Shown here one piece after another: positions 5,896 to 47,766 of a stretch of 64,000 nucleotides of DNA. The notes under the pieces were generated by a model. That model was not told the DNA's origin, ran no database searches, and saw only the letters and a program-made list of their open reading frames with translations. Position numbers and translations under genes: made by a program. Numbering within the stretch: the first letter of the stretch is position 1; every line of letters begins with the position of its first letter. The DNA is from Alphaproteobacteria bacterium (GTDB lineage Bacteria; Pseudomonadota; Alphaproteobacteria; JAJTHO01; CANGYM01): contig JBILTX010000001.1 of the NCBI GenBank assembly GCA_044371315.1, positions 1,907 through 65,906 on the forward strand. The letters run 5' to 3'.

Positions 5896-5980
5896 AGAAA
5901 AAGACTCCTTGCTACGTGCATGATGGATGTCCTACATGGACAGGTTAAATCGGCAAAAAAGACCGATCGGCAAAAAAGGG

Positions 5981-13859: not shown

Positions 13860-13890
13860 ATAATTATTTGGTGCAATAATTATTTGGTGC
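13857..13890. repeat. tandem 16-bp direct repeat AATAATTATTTGGTGC x2 that includes the tRNA-Leu 3' end
   Basis: Seen directly in the sequence. The repeat unit is GCACCA plus the palindromic AATAATTATT in the tRNA orientation. Confidence 0.6.
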
Positions 13891-13970
13891 CCCAGGAGGG
13901 ACTTGAACCCCCACACCCTTGCGAGTAGCAGATTTTGAGTCTGCCGCGTCTACCATTCCACCACTGGGGC
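13885..13970 (-). tRNA. tRNA-Leu (anticodon CAA)
   Basis: Reverse complement folds as a type II tRNA. Acceptor GCCCCAG/CTGGGGC, anticodon loop CTCAAAA, long variable arm, T-loop GGTTCAAGTCC, encoded CCA. Confidence 0.9.
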
Positions 13971-14079: not shown

Positions 14080-14163
14080 GCGGTCGTGGCGGAATGGTAG
14101 ACGCGCAGCGTTGAGGTCGCTGTGGGGAGACCCGTGGAAGTTCGACTCTTCTCGACCGCACCA
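14080..14163 (+). tRNA. tRNA-Leu (anticodon GAG)
   Basis: Acceptor GCGGTCG/CGACCGC, anticodon loop TTGAGGT, long variable arm, T-loop GGTTCGACTCT, encoded CCA. Confidence 0.9.
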
Positions 14164-21110: not shown

Positions 21111-21743
21111 TTGGATCGGGTATTTATCATGCGTTTTTTTGGGTTGGTTTTGGCGTTTTTGGTTTGCTTTGGTTCCGCGGCATGGGCACAGTCTTTTGAT
21201 AAAAAACCCAGTATGGATTATATCCAGGGGTTGGCGGAAAAAGTTGTCGTTATTGCCAAACAAAATAAAGATAAGGCCATTCAGGATGAGAATGTTGCAA
21301 AATTACTGAATGAAAATTTAGCTTATGAACGGATTGCCCGTTTTGTTTTGGGCAAACATTGGGCGAATGCCAACGAAAAAGAGAAAAAAGAGTTTGTTGA
21401 TCTTTATGCGAAATCCCTTCGTCTAGCCTATTCCCGTCAAATTTTGTCGGTGGATTTGAAAGATGTACAGGTTTATGATGCTCTTGTTGCGCCTCGGGGC
21501 CAGATGGTCACGGTCAAAACAAAGGTCGTGGATCCCGATTCAGGTCAACTTGTGGCGATTGACTGGCGGTTGTTTTCTTCTGCCGAAGGATACAAAATTC
21601 TGGATGTGCTCGTAGAGGGCATCAGTGTGGCGTCTTCTCAGCGTTCAGAATACGCCTCGATTATTCAACGAGGGGGGGGTAAAGTTGAGGCGGTTCTGGC
21701 CAAGTTGCGTCAGGATACCCAAGAACCTGTTCAAAATCCGTGA
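21111..21743 (+). CDS. mlaC: phospholipid-binding protein MlaC/Ttg2D family
   Basis: Signal peptide. ERIARFVLGKHWANANEKEKKEFVDLYAKSL is typical of the toluene-tolerance Ttg2D family. Confidence 0.75.
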   Translation: MDRVFIMRFFGLVLAFLVCFGSAAWAQSFDKKPSMDYIQGLAEKVVVIAKQNKDKAIQDENVAKLLNENLAYERIARFVLGKHWANANEKEKKEFVDLYAKSLRLAYSRQILSVDLKDVQVYDALVAPRGQMVTVKTKVVDPDSGQLVAIDWRLFSSAEGYKILDVLVEGISVASSQRSEYASIIQRGGGKVEAVLAKLRQDTQEPVQNP

Positions 21744-23605
21744 AGACTTTTAGCCTTCGCCGCCTTTCATATGCGGTGATTGTGGTTGTTTTTGTTTTTT
21801 TGATGGTCTGCTCAGGCTTTATTATTTTAAGCCTTAATAATTTAAGCGTCATGGCAGAGCATGCCCGTTTAGAAGCCGTCCCGAAAGCCCTAGATCGTCA
21901 CCAAAAAGCCAGGATTATTGAGCAAATGCGGGCGTTGTTGGATGTGATGCTGACTACGGGCGATTTAAAAAAAATTGACATGGTTAAGGGAAAATTGGTT
22001 TTTTTAAGCACGCATATGATGGATCGTTATCTTGATCCTTCTCTTCATGCTTTGATGAGGCATATTTCTGCGGAAACCCAACGTTTGGCATCAAAAGCAC
22101 GGACTATCGTAGCTAAAAACAATGAAATTTTTGATCAAAAACAGAAAATTGATGCGCAGATTGAAACCTTGCGTCCTTTTATAGAACAAACTCAGATTGA
22201 ATTGTGGTCAAAATTGCAGGTTCATTCTTCCCACGACAGGGAGGTATTTGTGCTTTATAAACGCATGGAAACATTGATGGGGACCTTTGACAAAATGGCT
22301 CTTTCTTTGGCCCAGCTGATGATTTTGCAAACGTCACAAGCTGTGGAAAATGAACAAAATCATTACCGCGCGATGGCAAGCTTGCTTCTTTATCTTAAGC
22401 CAAGATTGCCTAGCCTCAGTTATCAAAAAGAGCTCTACGCACTTATTGAACATTTTTCATCTGTGGAGTATTTGTTTGATTTAAAACAAGAAAATATTAG
22501 TTTTTTGGCCCAGCTTTCTAAAGAACATTTGTCCCTGAATCAGAATTTGTCTTCTTTGCAGAATCAATTGACCCAAACAGGTATTGATTTGGCCAAAAGG
22601 GTGACGGATTCTTTGGAATATCAAGCTCGTGAAGGATTTTTAGCCTCAATGATTGTTTTCCTTGTTTTGGGGGCTTTGTTTTTCTTGTTGGCGCTCATTT
22701 TGCTTTATGGGATTGTGAAACCTATGACGCGGGCCAGCTATGTTTTGCGGAATTTGCATGGGTGTGATCCCCAAAAGGATTTAATGCATTCCGATTTGGT
22801 TGAGATGGAATCCATTAATCAAGGGGTTATACAGTTGGCGTCTGCCATGAAGGCTACAGAGGAGGCTAACGCACGTTTAATCACCATGGCCCAACTGCAA
22901 AGCACCTTCACCGCCACCGTTTCCCATGAATTGCGCACCCCATTAACGTCCATCCGTGGCTTTTCGCATATCATTCAAAAAGATTTAAAAACCATTTTGC
23001 AAGATATACCATCATCAAAATATATATCCCGCATTGTCTCTAACGTAGAGATTATTCAGGCTGAAAGTGAACGTTTGAGCCTGTTGATTAATGATGTTTT
23101 GGATATGACCAGTCTTTCCTCTGGCCGCATGGTCTGGCGGGACGAATATACTCAACCGGCGGAGGTTATCCGTTACACCGTTGCGGCCATGAAGGGGCAG
23201 CGTCTTCAGCATACCCACATTTTACTGGAGCAGGATATTCAAAATCCCTTGCCAACCTTAAAGGTGGATCCTCATCGCCTGCAACAGGTTCTGATGAACT
23301 TGTTGCACAATGCATACAAATTTACGGAAAAGGGTCGCATTATATTGAAATGCTGGGCAAAAAATGATCGTGTTTATTTTTCCGTCCAAGATACGGGCAT
23401 GGGGATTCCCAAAGAAGACTTTGATAGAATTTTTGAACAATTTCAGCAAAGTGGGTCTTTGAAAGATAAGCCCCGTGGTACCGGTTTGGGATTGGCCATT
23501 TGTCGTCAAATTGTAGAACATTATGGTGGTTCGTTAACCGTGTCTTCTGAGGTCGGCAAAGGCAGTACCTTTACATTTTTTATTGGACATAATACCTCAG
23601 CATAG
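21740..23605 (+). CDS. membrane sensor histidine kinase
   Basis: N-terminal TM helix, long coiled sensor region, second TM helix, HisKA H-box SHELRTPLTSIRGF, and the N, G1 and G2 boxes of an HATPase_c domain. Confidence 0.85.
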   Translation: MKTFSLRRLSYAVIVVVFVFLMVCSGFIILSLNNLSVMAEHARLEAVPKALDRHQKARIIEQMRALLDVMLTTGDLKKIDMVKGKLVFLSTHMMDRYLDPSLHALMRHISAETQRLASKARTIVAKNNEIFDQKQKIDAQIETLRPFIEQTQIELWSKLQVHSSHDREVFVLYKRMETLMGTFDKMALSLAQLMILQTSQAVENEQNHYRAMASLLLYLKPRLPSLSYQKELYALIEHFSSVEYLFDLKQENISFLAQLSKEHLSLNQNLSSLQNQLTQTGIDLAKRVTDSLEYQAREGFLASMIVFLVLGALFFLLALILLYGIVKPMTRASYVLRNLHGCDPQKDLMHSDLVEMESINQGVIQLASAMKATEEANARLITMAQLQSTFTATVSHELRTPLTSIRGFSHIIQKDLKTILQDIPSSKYISRIVSNVEIIQAESERLSLLINDVLDMTSLSSGRMVWRDEYTQPAEVIRYTVAAMKGQRLQHTHILLEQDIQNPLPTLKVDPHRLQQVLMNLLHNAYKFTEKGRIILKCWAKNDRVYFSVQDTGMGIPKEDFDRIFEQFQQSGSLKDKPRGTGLGLAICRQIVEHYGGSLTVSSEVGKGSTFTFFIGHNTSA

Positions 23606-43418: not shown

Positions 43419-43770
43419 GCCGCGGGTTTCTTTCCTGCACACGGTCTTTCGGGGCACATGCCCCCGATGTGGGGTGGGGTCTGTTTACGAAGGCTTTTTT
43501 GCGTTAAAACCCGCTTGTCCATCCTGTAATCTGGATTTGCGTGGCCATGACATGGGCGATGGCCCTGTTTATGTGATCCTTTCGTTGCTGTGTCTTCTGG
43601 TGCCTTTGGGGGCGCTTTTTGTGGAATTTCGGTATGAACCACCGGTATGGGTCCACGGGATTGTCTGGCCTGTGGTGGTTTTGGGGTTAACATTGGGCCT
43701 GCTGCGGCCGATCAAATCGGCCTATCTGCATCAGCAGTACTGTCACCGTTCTTTGAAAGAGGATGCCTAG
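43330..43770 (+). CDS. DUF983-family zinc-ribbon membrane protein
   Basis: CPRCG...CPSCN zinc ribbon followed by two TM helices, in the position after coxC that is typical for alphaproteobacteria. The start is ambiguous: the nearest in-frame ATG overlaps coxC by 89 bp. Confidence 0.55.
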
Positions 43771-44497
43771 GTTCATGCGGTGGCTGAAGCCCCTTTTGTT
43801 TTGGGTTGTTGTGCTTGGCATTCAAGGGACCCTTATGGGATTAAGCCACTGGCAATGGCATCGCCTGTCGTGGAAGGAAAATGCCATAGCCCTGAGGGAT
43901 GCACGCTGGGCATCCGAAGTCATTCCGGTAGAACACGCCCTTTCCCAAAACAGTATGCCCCCCGACTGGTTGAACGTCAGAGTGTGTGGCCAAGTCATAC
44001 CACAAACATATGCCAAAGTTTCCTACGTAGCGGGGCTGTCCAAGGCTGCTTTTTCTGTGGTGGTGCCCATGACGGCAGCATTGGGGCCGTTGGGGAATCG
44101 AAACATACTTTTGGATGTCGGTTATGTTTATTTTGATGAAGAAATAAACATGGCGTCGCAAGAAATACCAGAGCAAAGCACAGAAAAACAATGTTTTTCT
44201 GGACACATTATCCCTGTATCTCGTGCTTGGGGCGGGGGCATGGGCGGGAAAGGGCAGGGGGATGTCTACTCTTATTTCGATATCGACACAATGGCGCGTC
44301 GTTGGTCGGTGGATCCCTTTGTGCCGTGGGTGGTGCGGCTGGATCAGCCGGATGTGTTGGTGGCGGGGCCTGTTAAAGCGTATCCCAATACCCCGCCAGA
44401 ATTGCGTAACCCCCACTTGGGCTATGCGCTGACGTGGATGGCTTTGGCCGTGATTTGGCCCGTTATGGTGTGGCTGCGCCTTAAAAAAGCGCGATAA
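43763..44497 (+). CDS. SURF1-family cytochrome oxidase assembly protein
   Basis: N-terminal TM helix plus HWQWHRLSWKE, and a C-terminal TM helix with LGYALTW. Length is 244 aa. Confidence 0.8.
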   Translation: MPRFMRWLKPLLFWVVVLGIQGTLMGLSHWQWHRLSWKENAIALRDARWASEVIPVEHALSQNSMPPDWLNVRVCGQVIPQTYAKVSYVAGLSKAAFSVVVPMTAALGPLGNRNILLDVGYVYFDEEINMASQEIPEQSTEKQCFSGHIIPVSRAWGGGMGGKGQGDVYSYFDIDTMARRWSVDPFVPWVVRLDQPDVLVAGPVKAYPNTPPELRNPHLGYALTWMALAVIWPVMVWLRLKKAR

Positions 44498-44592: not shown

Positions 44593-44685
44593 GGAGCGAT
44601 GGGTGAGTGGCTGAAACCAACGGTTTGCTAAACCGTCGTACGGGCTTTACCCGTACCGAGGGTTCGAATCCCTCTCGCTCCGCCA
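44593..44685 (+). tRNA. tRNA-Ser (anticodon GCU)
   Basis: Acceptor GGAGCGA/TCGCTCC, anticodon loop TTGCTAA, long variable arm, T-loop GGTTCGAATCC, encoded CCA. Confidence 0.9.
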
Positions 44686-44761
44686 TGATTCTCTCCGAAT
44701 GCTTTTTGAGCCGCAGTTAAGCGTTAAGTGTCTAATATAATTATTTTTTAAAAGGACATTT

Positions 44762-45364
44762 GTGTTAGACCAAATTATTATAGACAAACAGGTCACTGCC
44801 GCAATAGTGGGCGGTTTTATAGCGGGTTGCACTGGCTGGTTTATTGATTGGAAGCGTGAAAACAGGAAGTTTCAAGCCTTAAGAAATTTTTTGATCACGG
44901 GTATTTGTGATGATCTCCAGCATTCTGTTGGGCTTTTCGATAAAATTCACGAAGAGTATGAAAAAACAGGAATAATTTATTTTACAACACTCAATGAGTT
45001 AAAAGAATCAAGGTATGTGTACCACAACAACAAAGATTGGATGGCCATCTTTGATGATGGTGATTTGCGCAAGAAAATTTTTAAGTATTATCTACAGAGC
45101 AATAATGCAATTCATATGCTGGAGTTTTTTCAACAGAGAAAGTATGACATAGAAGCTAGAGTTGATGAATTAGCCATAAAAATCAAATCAGAAAATCCAA
45201 CGTTTTCACAGGAAGAGGCTCTAAAACAGGCTATTGGTTATATGTCTAAAGAACACACTGAATATGAGAATTTACCCAAGCACATCAGTCAATTTGCAAA
45301 TAAGTTAAAAGATTTCAAAACAACAGCTGAAACTATAATCACAAAACTTAAAACCATACAGTGA
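44762..45364 (+). CDS. hypothetical protein of the islet: N-terminal TM helix plus a 170-aa cytoplasmic domain
   Basis: AT-rich codon usage and one hydrophobic helix (VTAAIVGGFIAGCTGWFIDW). No recognisable domain. Confidence 0.5.
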   Translation: MLDQIIIDKQVTAAIVGGFIAGCTGWFIDWKRENRKFQALRNFLITGICDDLQHSVGLFDKIHEEYEKTGIIYFTTLNELKESRYVYHNNKDWMAIFDDGDLRKKIFKYYLQSNNAIHMLEFFQQRKYDIEARVDELAIKIKSENPTFSQEEALKQAIGYMSKEHTEYENLPKHISQFANKLKDFKTTAETIITKLKTIQ

Positions 45365-45717
45365 GAGTTCAAGTGAGATTTAAGCATCAATTTGTATTGA
45401 TATTTTTGGTCCTTGTTGTTGTAGGATCGGCAACAGCAAAAACTGAAAATAAAGCTGAGGACACCCTTGACCCGCGTTGGGTTTTGGCTGTTGCAAAAAA
45501 CACTGGGTCTTGTGGCATCATGCAGGAGATGATTTCCTTTCAGCAGAAAACAAAAATGCAAGGCGGAGATGATTTTGTGACGAGGTTTTTGCAAACGGAA
45601 TCAGCCCGTCGGGGTATCGCCGTTAACCAGATGTTCGATGAGTGCAATGATTCGATTGCCAAATATGGAGACTTATGGCAATTTATGGATCCACAGTCCA
45701 AACAGACAAAGCCATAA
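45361..45717 (+). CDS. hypothetical small secreted protein of the islet (GTG start)
   Basis: Signal-peptide-like FVLIFLVLVVVGSATA, four Cys residues, 4-bp overlap with the upstream ORF. Confidence 0.4.
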   Translation: MRVQVRFKHQFVLIFLVLVVVGSATAKTENKAEDTLDPRWVLAVAKNTGSCGIMQEMISFQQKTKMQGGDDFVTRFLQTESARRGIAVNQMFDECNDSIAKYGDLWQFMDPQSKQTKP

Positions 45718-45829
45718 GGGTGCTTTTGGTTTTTGCAGGAAAGAGTTGTCTATTTTGAGTGCTCCTGAATCTGCCCCAACATTTTTGAGTTGCCAAAGAG
45801 CCCCTCTGCGCTATACCTGAACCTGTGTT

Positions 45830-46801
45830 GTGTTCAAAAAGGATGTTATGCTGCCCAAACCATCGTTGACCGTGCTGATGGCCAGCCCGCGCGGGTTTTG
45901 TGCGGGGGTGGATCGGGCGATTTTGATCGTAGAGCGGGCGCTGGAAAAATACGGCCCCCCTGTGTACGTGCGTCACGAAATTGTCCATAATCGTCACGTG
46001 GTGCAGTCCCTCAGGAATAAAGGCGCTGTTTTTGTTGACGATTTGCAGGATATTCCCACGGATCGCCCCGTGGTGTTTTCCGCCCATGGCGTATCAAAGG
46101 CCGTGGTGGGGGAGGCCGAGGACAAAGCGCTGTTTACCCTGGATGCCACCTGTCCCCTAGTGTCCAAAGTGCATCATGAGGTTCTGCGCTGGCACAGTAA
46201 AGGCTATCACATCATTTTTATCGGACACCGCGGCCATCCTGAGGTGGAGGGCACCATGGGTCAGGTGCCGGCGGGGGCCATGACCTTGGTGGAAACGGTA
46301 GCGGATGTGGCGGATTTGAGTATGTCTTCGGACACACCGATGGCATACGCAACGCAAACCACCTTATCAGTGGATGAAACCATGGCCATTGTGGCGGCGC
46401 TGAAGGCCCGTTATCCCCACCTGCAGGGTCCCAAAAAAGAAGATATCTGTTATGCCACCACCAACCGGCAAGAGGCTGTGAAGCGACTGGCCCCGCTTTG
46501 TGATCTGTTTCTTGTGGTGGGGTCCCCCAATTCGTCCAATTCGCGCCAACTGGTTCAGGTCGCCATGGATTATGGATGCCCCCGCGCGGTGCTGTTGGAT
46601 ACACCAGACCCGCTACAGCGTTTGCCTTTGGTGGGGGGGATGACCGTGGGCCTAAGCGCAGGGGCATCAGCCCCCGAAGCGTTGGTTCAGGACATACTCA
46701 AGGCCCTGCAGGATTATTTCTTTGTGGAAATAAAAGAAGAAAGCGGCATGTCCGAAGGGGTCTCCTTTCGCCTACCAGTCATTCTTGAGGGGAATGACTG
46801 A
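45830..46801 (+). CDS. ispH: 4-hydroxy-3-methylbut-2-enyl diphosphate reductase
   Basis: LMASPRGFCAGVDRAI, with the other cluster-binding cysteines conserved. Length is 323 aa. Confidence 0.9.
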   Translation: MFKKDVMLPKPSLTVLMASPRGFCAGVDRAILIVERALEKYGPPVYVRHEIVHNRHVVQSLRNKGAVFVDDLQDIPTDRPVVFSAHGVSKAVVGEAEDKALFTLDATCPLVSKVHHEVLRWHSKGYHIIFIGHRGHPEVEGTMGQVPAGAMTLVETVADVADLSMSSDTPMAYATQTTLSVDETMAIVAALKARYPHLQGPKKEDICYATTNRQEAVKRLAPLCDLFLVVGSPNSSNSRQLVQVAMDYGCPRAVLLDTPDPLQRLPLVGGMTVGLSAGASAPEALVQDILKALQDYFFVEIKEESGMSEGVSFRLPVILEGND

Positions 46802-46803
46802 GT

Positions 46804-47766
46804 ATGGCGGTATTTACAAGTCTTTCCAAGAGCGACTTTGACCAAGTCTCTCAAGTATGGCCCATAGGGCCTATAGAGAAATACCAAGGAATGGCTTCCG
46901 GTGTTGAGAACACCACCTACCGAGTTTGCTCTGGTATGTCTAAGTATATCCTCACATTGATTGAAAAAAGGACCCGGGCAGACGATTTAAGGTATTTCTC
47001 AGAGCTTCAAAAGTATTTCTTTTCGCGAGGCATACCATGTCCGACAGTTGTTTTGACGGAGCATCAAAAAAACTATCAAGAAATACTTGGGCTGCCCGCT
47101 GTTTTGACGACGTTTTTATCGGGCCAGTCTTTGGAAGCCCTCAGCCAAGAAGCCTGTGCCCAAATGGGAGGGTTCTTGGGCACCATGCACCGCGTTCAGG
47201 GGGAGTTTCCCCTGCGTAAAGACAATCCCGTTTCCTTGGCTGCGTTGGGGGATATCTGGCAAAAATGCACGCAGGCGCAGGGCTTTTCCCCAGAATCTTG
47301 GGGGGGGCTTTACGACGAATTTTTGTTGTTGGGACAGCAGGATATGGATCATCTGCCCCGTGGAACCATCCATGCGGATGCCTTTCCCGACAATGTTTTT
47401 TTTGATGAAAAAGGGCAGATTTGCGGCATCATCGATTGGTATTTTGCGTGTTATGATCATTTGCTTTACGATGTCGCCCTGACCATGGTGGGGTGGTGTT
47501 ATGACGAAGCCCGTCAGTGGCGGCCGGATTGGGCAGGGGCATTTTTGCGGGCGTATTTGCGGGCGTTTCCTTTAGGGGCCTTTAAAGACACCGATTTGCG
47601 CTGGATGCTGCGTCGTGCCTGTGTGCGTATTGCCATAACGCGCCTTTATGATCACCTGTATCCCCGCGCCGACGGGATGGTTGTGCCCAAAAGCCCCTTG
47701 GATTTTTTGCAGCATCTGCAAAACCATCAGCGGGGGATTCCCCTTTATGAGGGATCGTTGCTATGA
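46804..47766 (+). CDS. thrB: homoserine kinase, type II (APH-like phosphotransferase fold)
   Basis: Position within the conserved ispH-thrB-rnhA arrangement. The [12 protein letters not shown] catalytic loop and [10 protein letters not shown] are present. Confidence 0.8.

What the first reader, a model, noticed from the sequence alone, without database searches (positions are those of the whole stretch)
44700..45830. Low-GC two-gene islet inserted directly 3' of tRNA-Ser(GCU)
GC content drops abruptly from about 55% to about 35% right after the tRNA and recovers at ispH. The islet carries a 200-aa protein with one N-terminal TM helix plus a cytoplasmic domain, and an overlapping 118-aa secreted Cys-containing protein. 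Neither has a recognisable family. An imperfect copy of the tRNA 3' end (CCCTCTGCGCT versus CCCTCTCGCTCC) sits at the distal edge, consistent with a degraded attR. Small tRNA-adjacent two-gene cargo of this architecture often encodes toxin/immunity, abortive-infection or exclusion functions.
Basis: partly seen in the sequence, partly recalled or inferred. Interest (0 to 1): 0.6.

Follow-up and report, generated by a model that had tools for sequence, protein, structure and literature searches.

The report
Two unrelated accessory genes beside tRNA-Ser
The AT-rich stretch between tRNA-Ser and ispH is real foreign DNA, but it is two unrelated, separately acquired genes of unknown function (one from a prophage gene family, one present in only some strains), not a toxin/immunity pair or an att-bounded island.

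Summary
GC falls from about 0.55 to 0.33 directly after tRNA-Ser(GCU), the lowest value in the 64-kb window, and recovers at ispH. Both ORFs are real, conserved protein genes.

The interpretation mostly fails.
- **attR:** the proposed copy of the tRNA 3' end is at chance level, and there is no integrase.
- **Gene pair:** the two genes are not a unit. About 35 loci with ORF1 relatives carry no ORF2 relative. None of the 21 ORF2-family viral contigs whose neighbouring ORFs I listed (of 46) showed an ORF1 relative.
- **ORF1-less haplotype:** sister strains appear to carry ORF2 directly after the tRNA without ORF1, a 638-nt single-gene indel. This is inferred from a fused protein; the DNA was not read.

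ORF1 belongs to a rare family (160 clusters among 1.84 billion). It has a hydrophobic N-terminal helix and an all-alpha domain, with no sequence or fold match. It is usually AT-rich relative to its host. Relatives sit near restriction-modification and toxin-antitoxin genes, inside a phage structural gene cluster, and in one other lineage also after tRNA-Ser(GCU).

ORF2 does have a family, PHROG 19844: secreted three-helix proteins with two conserved cysteines. In P22-like prophages the gene lies downstream of the mnt repressor, in the sieA/orf59a region.

The most likely role is envelope-level phage exclusion or defence. That is inferred from context only. Interest is modest.

The parts
44593..44685 (+). 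tRNA-Ser(GCU), the left border of the AT-rich stretch
   Evidence: ARAGORN. Rfam tRNA model, 58.9 bits.
44699..44740 (+). Short leader stretch after the tRNA: a 13-codon ORF, MLFEPQLSVKCLI*. Its first 12 codons are fused in frame to ORF2 in protein P0215, which marks the left junction of the ORF1 indel.
   Evidence: Translation. P0215 sequence.
44736..45373 (+). Inferred 638-nt strain-variable segment: ORF1 with about 25 nt upstream (including an AAGGA Shine-Dalgarno sequence) and about 10 nt downstream. The end points are uncertain by 1-2 nt. In the ORF1-less form the junction reads CTA|ATG AGA, which gives ORF2 an ATG start.
   Evidence: P0215 = MLFEPQLSVKCL + MRFKHQF.... The ORF2 90% cluster has 10 members on many contigs. 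The ORF1 cluster has only 2 members, both identical to the window, and the next relative is 67% identical. The DNA of the ORF1-less contigs was not read.
44762..45364 (+). ORF1, 200 aa. It has a Gly/Ala-rich hydrophobic N-terminal helix (about residues 10-30) followed by an all-alpha domain predicted to be cytoplasmic. It belongs to a rare, unnamed family.
   Evidence: ORF list. 21 relatives at 37-100% identity with 35 invariant columns. 160 clusters at E<=1e-3 among 1.84 billion. AlphaFold2 model, pLDDT 86.7. Charge is -1 before and +4 after the hydrophobic helix. Both strain differences are synonymous.
45373..45717 (+). ORF2, 114 aa from 45373 (118 aa if it starts at the GTG at 45361). It has a signal peptide, with likely cleavage after ATA at residue 26 in 118-aa numbering. 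The mature part is a three-helix domain with conserved Cys51 and Cys95. It is a member of PHROG 19844.
   Evidence: PHROG hit at E = 5.8e-18 covering profile positions 6-99 of 105. 37 relatives. Alignment A5. AlphaFold2 model with the core above pLDDT 90. 46 viral contigs.
45360..45381 (+). 10-nt direct repeat, AGTGAGAGTT and AGTGAGATTT, spanning the ORF1 stop and the ORF2 start at the right junction of the indel.
   Evidence: Family D11. Its significance is not established.
45718..45847 (+). Spacer between ORF2 and ispH. GC is about 0.46. It is unusually divergent between strains, and it holds the supposed attR at 45801-45811.
   Evidence: 8 of the 15 differences between the window and L088 fall here. 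The attR test is at chance level. No Rfam match and no terminator.
45848..46801 (+). ispH (LytB), the native right flank
   Evidence: Pfam PF02401 at E = 8e-90. GC3 is 0.64.
43763..44497 (+). SURF1-family gene, the native left flank
   Evidence: Pfam PF02104. GC3 is 0.57.

Best explanation
The stretch is a small composite of horizontally acquired accessory DNA in an uncultured alphaproteobacterium. It lies in the variable spot just downstream of tRNA-Ser(GCU). It holds two unrelated genes that arrived separately.

**ORF2** is the older resident. It belongs to a phage-borne family of small secreted proteins with two conserved cysteines. In P22-like prophages that gene sits in or just after the mnt repressor operon, between mnt and the DNA-ejection genes. 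This is the region that holds orf59a and sieA in P22.

**ORF1** is a rare, probably membrane-anchored all-alpha protein. In this population it is a present/absent single-gene segment of about 638 nt, wedged between the tRNA leader and the ORF2 start. Elsewhere it turns up alone in variable regions, and in one case in a phage-like gene cluster.

**Inferred function, not shown:** both are moron-type envelope proteins. ORF2 would act in the periplasm and ORF1 at the inner membrane. They would protect the cell against incoming phages, by superinfection exclusion or a single-gene abortive/defence action. They do not act as a cognate pair.
For: **Foreign composition:**

**ORF1 family**
- It spans Alpha- and Gammaproteobacteria and Zixibacteria.
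- The gene is more AT-rich than its flank in most loci. In L083, GC3 is 0.31 against 0.68 for the neighbouring ClpB gene.
- Between the window and the other ORF1 loci, DNA similarity stops at the ends of the coding sequence.
- Neighbours differ from locus to locus. They include type I restriction-modification, GmrSD, an MjaI-type endonuclease, BrnT/BrnA and Fic. RES-Xre and transposases among them were recognised only by my reading of the translations.
- L168 and L169 place a 62%-identical relative on the opposite strand inside a phage capsid/tube gene cluster.
- The same 1.24-kb module lies next to a type I restriction-modification system in L089.

**ORF2 family**
- PHROG 19844 hit. Relatives occur in Kapi1 and S.Kent 1-2-1 and in 46 IMG/VR contigs.
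- A Mnt/Arc-type gene lies upstream on the same strand in 37 of the 46 contigs. Its stop overlaps the ORF2-homolog start in 22.
- P22 annotation gives the order 16, sieA, orf59a, mnt. The figure legend of PMC10883804 states that prophage-expressed regions are marked on the P22 map. I take the expression of mnt and sieA in lysogens from general knowledge of P22.

**Independence of the two genes:**

**Strain comparison:** there are 2 synonymous differences in 789 nt of the islet against 13 in 322 nt of the right flank, Fisher p = 5e-6.
Against: - No experiment or homology ties either family to phage resistance. PADLOC has no hit for either protein. hhalign finds no relation to P22 SieA, SieB or orf59a.
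- Fold searches give only generic helical bundles.
- ORF1 relatives were not found in IMG/VR or in GenBank phages.
- Only about a third of ORF1 loci have defence, toxin-antitoxin or mobile neighbours. That may simply mark variable regions.
- The ORF1-less haplotype is inferred from one fused protein and from cluster counts. Its DNA was not read, and the direction of the event (insertion or deletion) is not settled.
- Whether ORF2 itself is absent from closer relatives could not be tested.
Confidence: 0.55

Rival explanations
1. The two genes form a toxin/immunity or toxin-antitoxin module, acquired together, in which one product neutralises the other.
For: The genes are adjacent, co-directional and 8 nt apart (or overlap by 4 nt). 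One product is probably membrane-bound and the other secreted. Some ORF1 relatives are also followed by a small secreted Cys-containing protein.
Against: The partners that follow ORF1 relatives are unrelated to ORF2 and to one another, except within one subclade. Many ORF1 relatives have no small partner at all. ORF2 relatives sit in prophages with no ORF1-like gene in the loci listed. The ORF1-less haplotype keeps ORF2. There is no hit to any toxin-antitoxin, immunity or defence model. A conserved 'immunity' protein paired with unrelated 'toxins' contradicts cognate specificity.
Confidence: 0.04
2. The stretch is the decayed remnant of a larger integrative element (prophage or genomic island) that integrated site-specifically into the 3' end of tRNA-Ser(GCU). 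The integrase and att repeats have since been lost.
For: The stretch begins directly after the tRNA. ORF2 belongs to a phage gene family. A 64%-identical ORF1 relative also lies about 175 nt after tRNA-Ser(GCT) in one other lineage, L083/L084, whose tRNA is 77% identical and whose flanking genes differ. A rough chance expectation for two of about 28 loci sharing one tRNA type is about 0.002, calculated after the fact.
Against: No integrase, no att repeat and no other phage gene is present. The ORF1 indel starts about 50 nt after the tRNA end, not at it. The other ORF1 loci scanned for tRNAs (L082, L089-L115) have no adjacent tRNA.
Confidence: 0.2
3. The genes are native and vertically inherited, and their low GC merely reflects amino-acid composition or local mutation bias.
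For: ORF1 is rich in K, E, N and I. The same arrangement is seen at 98.7-99.9% identity in two other metagenome samples.
Against: GC3, which is largely free of amino-acid constraint, is 0.34 against 0.56 +/- 0.07 for the host. Both families are patchy across phyla and phages. The locus shows a present/absent polymorphism. The islet is far less diverged between strains than its flank.
Confidence: 0.03
4. ORF1 is an integron-type gene cassette, which would explain a bare ORF inserted tightly in many contexts.
For: The gene is single, compact and co-directional with its upstream neighbour in most loci, and some loci carry runs of small same-strand ORFs (L091, L106). Two GTTAAGY motifs lie upstream of ORF1.
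Against: No attC-like site (RYYYAAC ... GTTRRRY with complementary ends) lies within 1.5 kb of ORF1 or of 22 relatives. No integron integrase was seen.
Confidence: 0.02

Closest known systems
Phage morons in the immI (sieA-orf59a-mnt) region of P22-like prophages
   Same: ORF2 is a sequence member of the gene family that occupies this region in many enterobacterial P22-like prophages. It is often translationally coupled to mnt. Like orf59a and sieA, these genes lie between mnt and the ejection-protein gene 16.
   Different: In the window there is no mnt, no ant and no other phage gene. The host is an alphaproteobacterium, not an enterobacterium. ORF2 has no detectable relation to orf59a, and ORF1 has none to SieA. 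No function is known for PHROG 19844.
P22 SieA/SieB, T4 Imm/Sp and HK97 gp15-type superinfection exclusion proteins
   Same: All are small envelope-located proteins (inner membrane or periplasm) encoded as accessory genes. ORF2's relatives lie in the sieA region. [quoted passage not shown]
   Different: ORF1 shows no sequence or profile similarity to SieA or SieB, and ORF2 was not compared with either. Neither protein has a fold match. No exclusion phenotype has been tested.
tRNA-linked genomic islands and integrative elements
   Same: The stretch lies immediately 3' of a tRNA, has deviant composition and is variable between strains.
   Different: There is no integrase and no att duplication. 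The stretch is only about 1.1 kb. The variable unit is a bare 638-nt gene that starts about 50 nt beyond the tRNA.
Single-gene membrane-anchored abortive-infection/defence proteins found in defence islands
   Same: ORF1 relatives are solitary genes that are AT-rich relative to the host. Several lie next to restriction-modification, GmrSD, BrnTA, RES-Xre or Fic genes. The hydrophobic helix is highly conserved and rich in small residues.
   Different: No PADLOC model matches. No enzymatic or sensor domain is recognisable. The association with defence genes holds for only about a third of loci and has not been tested statistically.

Membership tests
tRNA-integrated genomic island / integrative element | Tyrosine or serine recombinase (integrase) gene within or at the edge of the element | tested here: not met
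   The only ORFs with relatives between the tRNA and ispH are ORF1 and ORF2. The flanks are SURF1 and ispH.
tRNA-integrated genomic island / integrative element | Direct repeat (attL/attR) that duplicates the 3' part of the tRNA at the distal edge | tested here: not met
   There is no match with up to 2 mismatches at the distal edge. The repeat finder reports nothing there. The local alignment score equals the shuffle mean.
tRNA-integrated genomic island / integrative element | Deviant base composition and presence/absence among strains | tested here: met
   The GC minimum of the window lies here, and GC3 is 0.34. An ORF1-less haplotype is inferred. No haplotype that lacks the whole islet was found.
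Toxin-antitoxin or toxin/immunity pair | The two genes co-occur as a conserved pair across genomes | tested here: not met
   None of about 35 ORF1 loci has an ORF2 relative. None of the 21 ORF2 viral loci whose neighbouring ORFs were listed shows an ORF1-like gene, by inspection. The remaining 25 of the 46 were not checked for this.
Toxin-antitoxin or toxin/immunity pair | Match of either product to a known toxin, antitoxin or immunity family | tested here: not met
   Pfam, NCBIfam and PADLOC give no hits. PHROGs gives only the unknown-function family 19844.
Toxin-antitoxin or toxin/immunity pair | Toxicity of one product, relieved by the other | not testable with these tools
   This needs expression experiments.
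PHROG 19844 (ORF2) | Significant full-length match to the family profile | tested here: met
   E = 5.8e-18, 66 bits, residues 12-107 against profile positions 6-99 of 105. A profile search finds 37 relatives.
PHROG 19844 (ORF2) | Shared architecture: signal peptide, conserved core motif and two conserved Cys | tested here: met
   Alignment A5: K46, G49, C51, G52, F60, Q61, T64, G68, F72, R75, F76 and R83 are invariant, and C95 is conserved in at least 90%. Hydrophobic N-terminus. Model.
PHROG 19844 (ORF2) | Typical genomic setting: downstream of mnt in a P22-like prophage | tested here: not met
   This holds for 37 of 46 viral loci. In the window no RHH repressor or phage gene is nearby.
Superinfection exclusion proteins SieA / SieB (P22) | Sequence or profile similarity | tested here: not met
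   hhalign probability is 0.24% or less for ORF1 against SieA and against SieB. ORF2 was compared only with orf59a, also without a match. ORF1 has no tblastn hit in phages.
Superinfection exclusion proteins SieA / SieB (P22) | Blocks infection by superinfecting phage when expressed | not testable with these tools
   This needs plating assays.
Known anti-phage defence systems (PADLOC-DB v2) | Match to a system component model | tested here: not met
   No family at E <= 1 for either protein.
Integron gene cassette | attC recombination site next to the ORF | tested here: not met
   A regex and complementarity scan finds none within 1.5 kb of ORF1 or in 22 related loci. This is a crude test, not a covariance model.

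The most novel reading that the evidence does not exclude
ORF1 would define a new family of solitary, membrane-anchored all-alpha anti-phage proteins. It would spread between bacteria and phages as an almost bare ORF, here as a 638-nt present/absent segment, with a recurrent landing place after tRNA-Ser(GCU). ORF2 (PHROG 19844) would be a previously unrecognised periplasmic superinfection-exclusion factor. It would be expressed from the mnt operon of P22-like prophages and act on the incoming ejection-protein conduit. An alphaproteobacterium would have captured both at one hot spot.
Probability: 0.25. Interest if true: 0.6.

Novelty: new member of a known kind. Interest (0 to 1): 0.35.

Why it matters
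Taken at face value this is an ordinary kind of feature: a tiny horizontally acquired islet of hypothetical genes at a tRNA. Three points give it some value.

1. It links an uncharacterised gene family to an alphaproteobacterial chromosome. About 3% of complete E. coli genomes carry one close variant of that family, beside the mnt/Arc repressor of P22-like prophages. This makes the family a candidate lysogenic-conversion or exclusion factor that could be tested directly in Salmonella or E. coli.

2. It flags a rare, well-folded protein family, probably membrane-anchored, that behaves as a mobile solitary gene. That is a reasonable candidate for defence-gene screens.

3. The apparent 638-nt single-gene indel, with no repeats or recombinase, is a clean natural case for asking how bare ORFs are inserted or lost.

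Tried and rejected
**Empty-site comparison**
None of the 60 of those loci scanned for tRNAs has a tRNA-Ser next to ispH.
- Exact-protein look-ups of ispH, SURF1 and the 114-aa ORF2 gave nothing or only contigs under 1.4 kb.

**Family and fold searches**
- Pfam, NCBIfam and PADLOC returned nothing for either protein.
- PDB sequence search returned nothing.
- Foldseek against PDB (both models) and BFVD (ORF1) gave only generic helical bundles, with E >= 0.04 and TM-scores mostly below 0.4 and never above 0.5.
- hhalign found no relation to P22 SieA, SieB or orf59a.

**Other hypotheses tested**
- Integron cassette: no attC-like sites.
- Conserved element ends around ORF1: between the window and the other ORF1 loci, DNA similarity stops at the coding sequence.
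- Longer family members (320-360 aa) were checked for an informative fused domain. They only add N-terminal hydrophobic (likely membrane) helices, and one is a purA chimera.
- A conserved 'ORF1 plus secreted partner' architecture: partners are unrelated between lineages, and about half of the loci have none, close to what chance would give. I did not retain it.
- A functional link to serine tRNA or serS (tRNA-Ser twice, serS once in L090): I treated the serS case as coincidence, because from general knowledge tatC-serS is a conserved neighbour pair in Alphaproteobacteria. The double tRNA-Ser adjacency remains unexplained.

**Other checks**
- The Kapi1 papers do not report a function or a specific expression level for Kapi1_059.
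- The Rfam and terminator/promoter scans found nothing of note inside the islet.
Full report
**1. The observation**

tRNA-Ser(GCT) lies at 44593-44685 on the + strand. Directly after it, GC in 200-nt windows drops to 0.33-0.38 over 44700-45400. It stays at 0.44-0.46 up to about 45800 and returns to 0.55-0.60 in ispH.

The lowest 600-nt GC of the whole 64-kb window is here: 0.332 at 44851, against a mean of 0.506 and sd of 0.042. Third-position GC is 0.34 for ORF1 and 0.43 for ORF2. Thirty-six long ORFs of the window average 0.56 +/- 0.07, with a minimum of 0.43.

The flanks are ordinary housekeeping genes:
- SURF1 at 43763-44497
- ispH/LytB at 45848-46801
- an APH-family kinase, probably a homoserine kinase, at 46804-47766

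The two ORFs are as described: ORF1 at 44762-45364 (200 aa) and ORF2 at 45361-45717 (118 aa). So the compositional islet and both ORFs are real.

**2. The attR claim**

The proposed copy of the tRNA 3' end at the distal edge is not distinguishable from chance.
- A 12-mer search with up to 2 mismatches does not find it, and finds matches elsewhere at the expected chance rate.
- The repeat finder lists many chance repeats of 10-14 nt in this region, but not this one.
- The best local alignment of the tRNA 3' half to 45650-45900 scores 8. Shuffles average 8.15, and 67% of shuffles do at least as well.

There is also no integrase. The stretch has no recognisable element ends.

**3. ORF1**

*Databases and structure.* Pfam, NCBIfam, PADLOC and PHROGs give nothing credible. 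The protein is nonetheless real and conserved. A word-index search found 21 relatives of 191-204 aa at 37-100% identity. Their alignment has 35 invariant columns, with the motifs GGF.A.GTGWF, TGICDDL.HS, TLNELKESR, RK.IFKYYL.S and QQRRKY.

A profile search of 1.84 billion cluster representatives found only 160 hits at E <= 1e-3, so the family is rare. The longer members add only N-terminal hydrophobic helices.

The AlphaFold2 model is confident (pLDDT 86.7) and entirely helical. It has one long N-terminal helix (residues 2-69) and a helical bundle. Foldseek against PDB and BFVD, and PDB sequence searches, return only generic bundles.

The N-terminal hydrophobic segment is Gly/Ala-rich and only moderately hydrophobic (Kyte-Doolittle 1.5). 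Net charge is -1 before it and +4 after it, so a membrane anchor with a cytoplasmic C-terminal domain is probable but not proven.

*Distribution.* I examined about 35 loci. Hosts include Alpha- and Gammaproteobacteria and Zixibacteria. In most loci the gene is more AT-rich than its surroundings. In L083, GC3 is 0.31 against 0.68 for the neighbouring ClpB gene. Between the window and the other ORF1 loci, DNA similarity ends at the coding sequence.

The neighbours differ from locus to locus:
- a type I restriction-modification system and Fic (L089)
- GmrSD and Fic directly after gyrB (L097)
- BrnT/BrnA (L090, L095, L112)
- RES-Xre (L095) and transposases (L103, L106), both recognised only by my reading of the translations
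- plain metabolic genes
- a position squeezed between tatC and serS (L090)
- a phage-like structural cluster with a capsid E protein, a decoration protein, an S49 protease and a tail tube, with the ORF1 relative on the opposite strand (L168, L169)

The 1.24-kb module of L168 is an ORF1 relative plus a Gly-rich secreted protein. It recurs at 86% nucleotide identity next to the restriction-modification system of L089. In L082 only the upstream 170 nt and the ORF1 relative are shared.

No ORF1 relative was found in IMG/VR or in GenBank phages.

One further lineage (L083-L086, 64% identical protein, 52% GC, different flanking genes) also has the gene about 175 nt after tRNA-Ser(GCT). The other ORF1 loci scanned for tRNAs (L082, L089-L115) have no adjacent tRNA.

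**4. ORF2**

It matches PHROG 19844 (unknown function) at E = 5.8e-18 over nearly the full profile. tblastn finds relatives in E. coli phage Kapi1 (Kapi1_059, annotated with a signal peptide) and in Salmonella phage S.Kent 1-2-1.

A profile search gives 37 proteins of about 100 aa from Salmonella, E. coli, Citrobacter, Yersinia and Caudoviricetes. All are named hypothetical and none has a Pfam domain. The alignment shows a variable signal peptide and a strongly conserved core, AK.aGMCG..kQM..FQEsT.MpGGdEF..RFL.TE.aRLG, with two conserved cysteines. The model is a signal helix plus a three-helix bundle, with core pLDDT above 90 and no PDB fold match.

*Setting in prophages.* The family occurs in 46 IMG/VR contigs. 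A Mnt/Arc-type ribbon-helix-helix gene lies upstream on the same strand within 2.5 kb in 37 of them. Its stop codon overlaps the ORF2-homolog start in 22. The typical order is tailspike, ant, arc, mnt, then the ORF2 homologue, facing the gene-16-type ejection protein gene.

In P22 this region holds orf59a and sieA. [quoted passage not shown] From general knowledge of P22, mnt is expressed in lysogens. The Kapi1 transcriptome paper, however, did not detect mnt transcripts there and does not comment on Kapi1_059.

ORF2 is unrelated to orf59a, and ORF1 is unrelated to SieA and SieB. One close variant of the family, with its adjacent Arc-family gene, is present in 156 of 5426 complete E. coli genomes. 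There it is annotated as a hypothetical protein.

**5. The two genes are not a unit**

No ORF1 locus has an ORF2 relative, and the genes that follow ORF1 relatives are unrelated to ORF2. In the 21 ORF2 viral loci whose neighbouring ORFs I listed, I saw no ORF1-like gene.

Within the window's own population, the 90%-identity cluster of ORF2 has ten members on many contigs of up to 68 kb. The ORF1 cluster has only two members, both identical to the window, and the next relative is 67% identical.

The ORF2 variants P0208, P0210, P0212 and P0214 start with ATG at the position of window 45373. P0215 (126 aa) reads MLFEPQLSVKCL followed directly by MRFKHQF.... MLFEPQLSVKCL is exactly the translation of window 44699-44734, the stretch just after the tRNA.

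The simplest reading is a haplotype in which about 44736 is joined to about 45374. ORF1, with its Shine-Dalgarno sequence and 10 nt of tail (638 nt in all), is absent, and the junction supplies an ATG for ORF2. This is an inference from protein sequences. I could not read the DNA because look-ups were exhausted. It also does not say whether the event was an insertion or a deletion. ORF1's more extreme composition and patchy distribution favour insertion.

A second strain comparison points the same way. Against L088, the 789 nt of ORF1 and ORF2 show 2 differences, both synonymous. The adjacent 322 nt (spacer plus the start of ispH) show 13, Fisher p = 5e-6. The islet is therefore much younger or more recently exchanged than its right flank, with a boundary between 45720 and 45805.

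**6. What it most likely is and does**

*Shown:*
- a compositionally foreign, roughly 1.1-kb stretch after tRNA-Ser
- two real protein genes from two unrelated families, both patchily distributed
- ORF2's family is phage-borne and tied to the mnt region of P22-like prophages
- ORF1's family is a solitary mobile gene in variable regions, and once in a phage-like cluster

*Inferred:*
- ORF1 is a later, strain-variable addition
- both products act at the envelope, ORF2 in the periplasm with a disulfide and ORF1 at the inner membrane
- their selective value is protection against phage, by exclusion or single-gene defence

I put the structural part at about 0.85 and the functional part at about 0.3. 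The toxin/immunity reading is rejected on distribution. The 'decayed integrative element' reading keeps some weight because of the second tRNA-Ser(GCU) association, which I cannot explain. A rough expectation for two of about 28 loci sharing one tRNA type is about 0.002, calculated after the fact.

**7. Novelty and verdict**

The kind of feature, a small islet of moron-type accessory genes at a tRNA, is well known. Both protein families are uncharacterised, and ORF1's family is rare and unnamed. I file this as a new member of a known kind, with modest interest (0.35).

The most novel reading not excluded is that these are two new envelope-acting anti-phage families, one moving as a nearly bare ORF (probability about 0.25).

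Noticed in passing
L083/L084 5734-5826 and 6001-6597; window 44593-45364: An ORF1 relative (64% identical) lies about 175 nt downstream of tRNA-Ser(GCT) in one other lineage, which has a different genomic context and a tRNA only 77% identical. The other ORF1 loci scanned for tRNAs have no adjacent tRNA. The recurrence is unlikely by chance (rough expectation 0.002) and is unexplained.
   Followed up: partly
L082 about 5935-5970, L089 about 5935-5970, L168 about 690-725, L169 about 1110-1145: A perfect 9-bp inverted repeat, GCTGTGCAC-N14-GTGCACAGC, lies about 45 nt upstream of the start codon of ORF1 relatives in one subclade. It sits inside a conserved upstream region of about 170 nt. It could be an operator or a 5'-UTR hairpin. 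It is absent from the window.
   Followed up: no
L089 6617-7033; L168 1377-1787; L169 1795-2205: The gene downstream of ORF1 relatives in this subclade encodes a 136-138-aa secreted, Cys-containing protein. It is made almost entirely of Y(A/D/S)GVGGP repeats and has no real family; the only hit is a weak, sub-threshold match to Cornifin.
   Followed up: partly
window 45805-45847: Seven of the 15 differences between the window and the 98.7%-identical contig L088, including a 1-nt indel, fall within 43 nt just upstream of the ispH start. The adjacent ORF2 is identical between the two.
   Followed up: partly
window 45360-45381: A 10-nt direct repeat, AGTGAGAGTT and AGTGAGATTT, spans the ORF1 stop codon and the ORF2 start, at the right junction of the inferred ORF1 indel. 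It could be a trace of the insertion mechanism or simply chance.
   Followed up: no
window 21900-22850: This is the second-lowest GC patch of the window (<= 0.40). It lies inside the N-terminal sensor part of a 621-aa histidine kinase gene (21740-23605). From my reading of the sequences, the two genes upstream look like an MlaA/VacJ-like and an MlaC/Ttg2D-like gene.
   Followed up: no
window 13885-13970 (-) and 14080-14163 (+): Two divergently oriented tRNA-Leu genes (CAA and GAG) lie 110 nt apart.
   Followed up: no
L090 5244-7899; L097 31-1065; L100 13-1216: ORF1 relatives are inserted very tightly into conserved housekeeping neighbourhoods. One lies between tatC and serS with spacers of 4 and 18 nt. 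Two lie 18-50 nt after the gyrB stop codon. This suggests they depend on read-through transcription.
   Followed up: partly
L082 6597-7046: The gene overlapping the stop of the ORF1 relative in MAG GCA_016722515 encodes a 149-aa protein with an HEVTH (HExxH) motif and no Pfam match. It is followed by a 247-aa secreted protein in a patch of 33% GC.
   Followed up: no
window 44628-44682 (-): Rfam reports a match antisense to the tRNA-Ser, to the plastid psbI-rps4 3'UTR family (62.2 bits against a gathering score of 68). It is almost certainly an artefact of that family overlapping plastid trnS.
   Followed up: no
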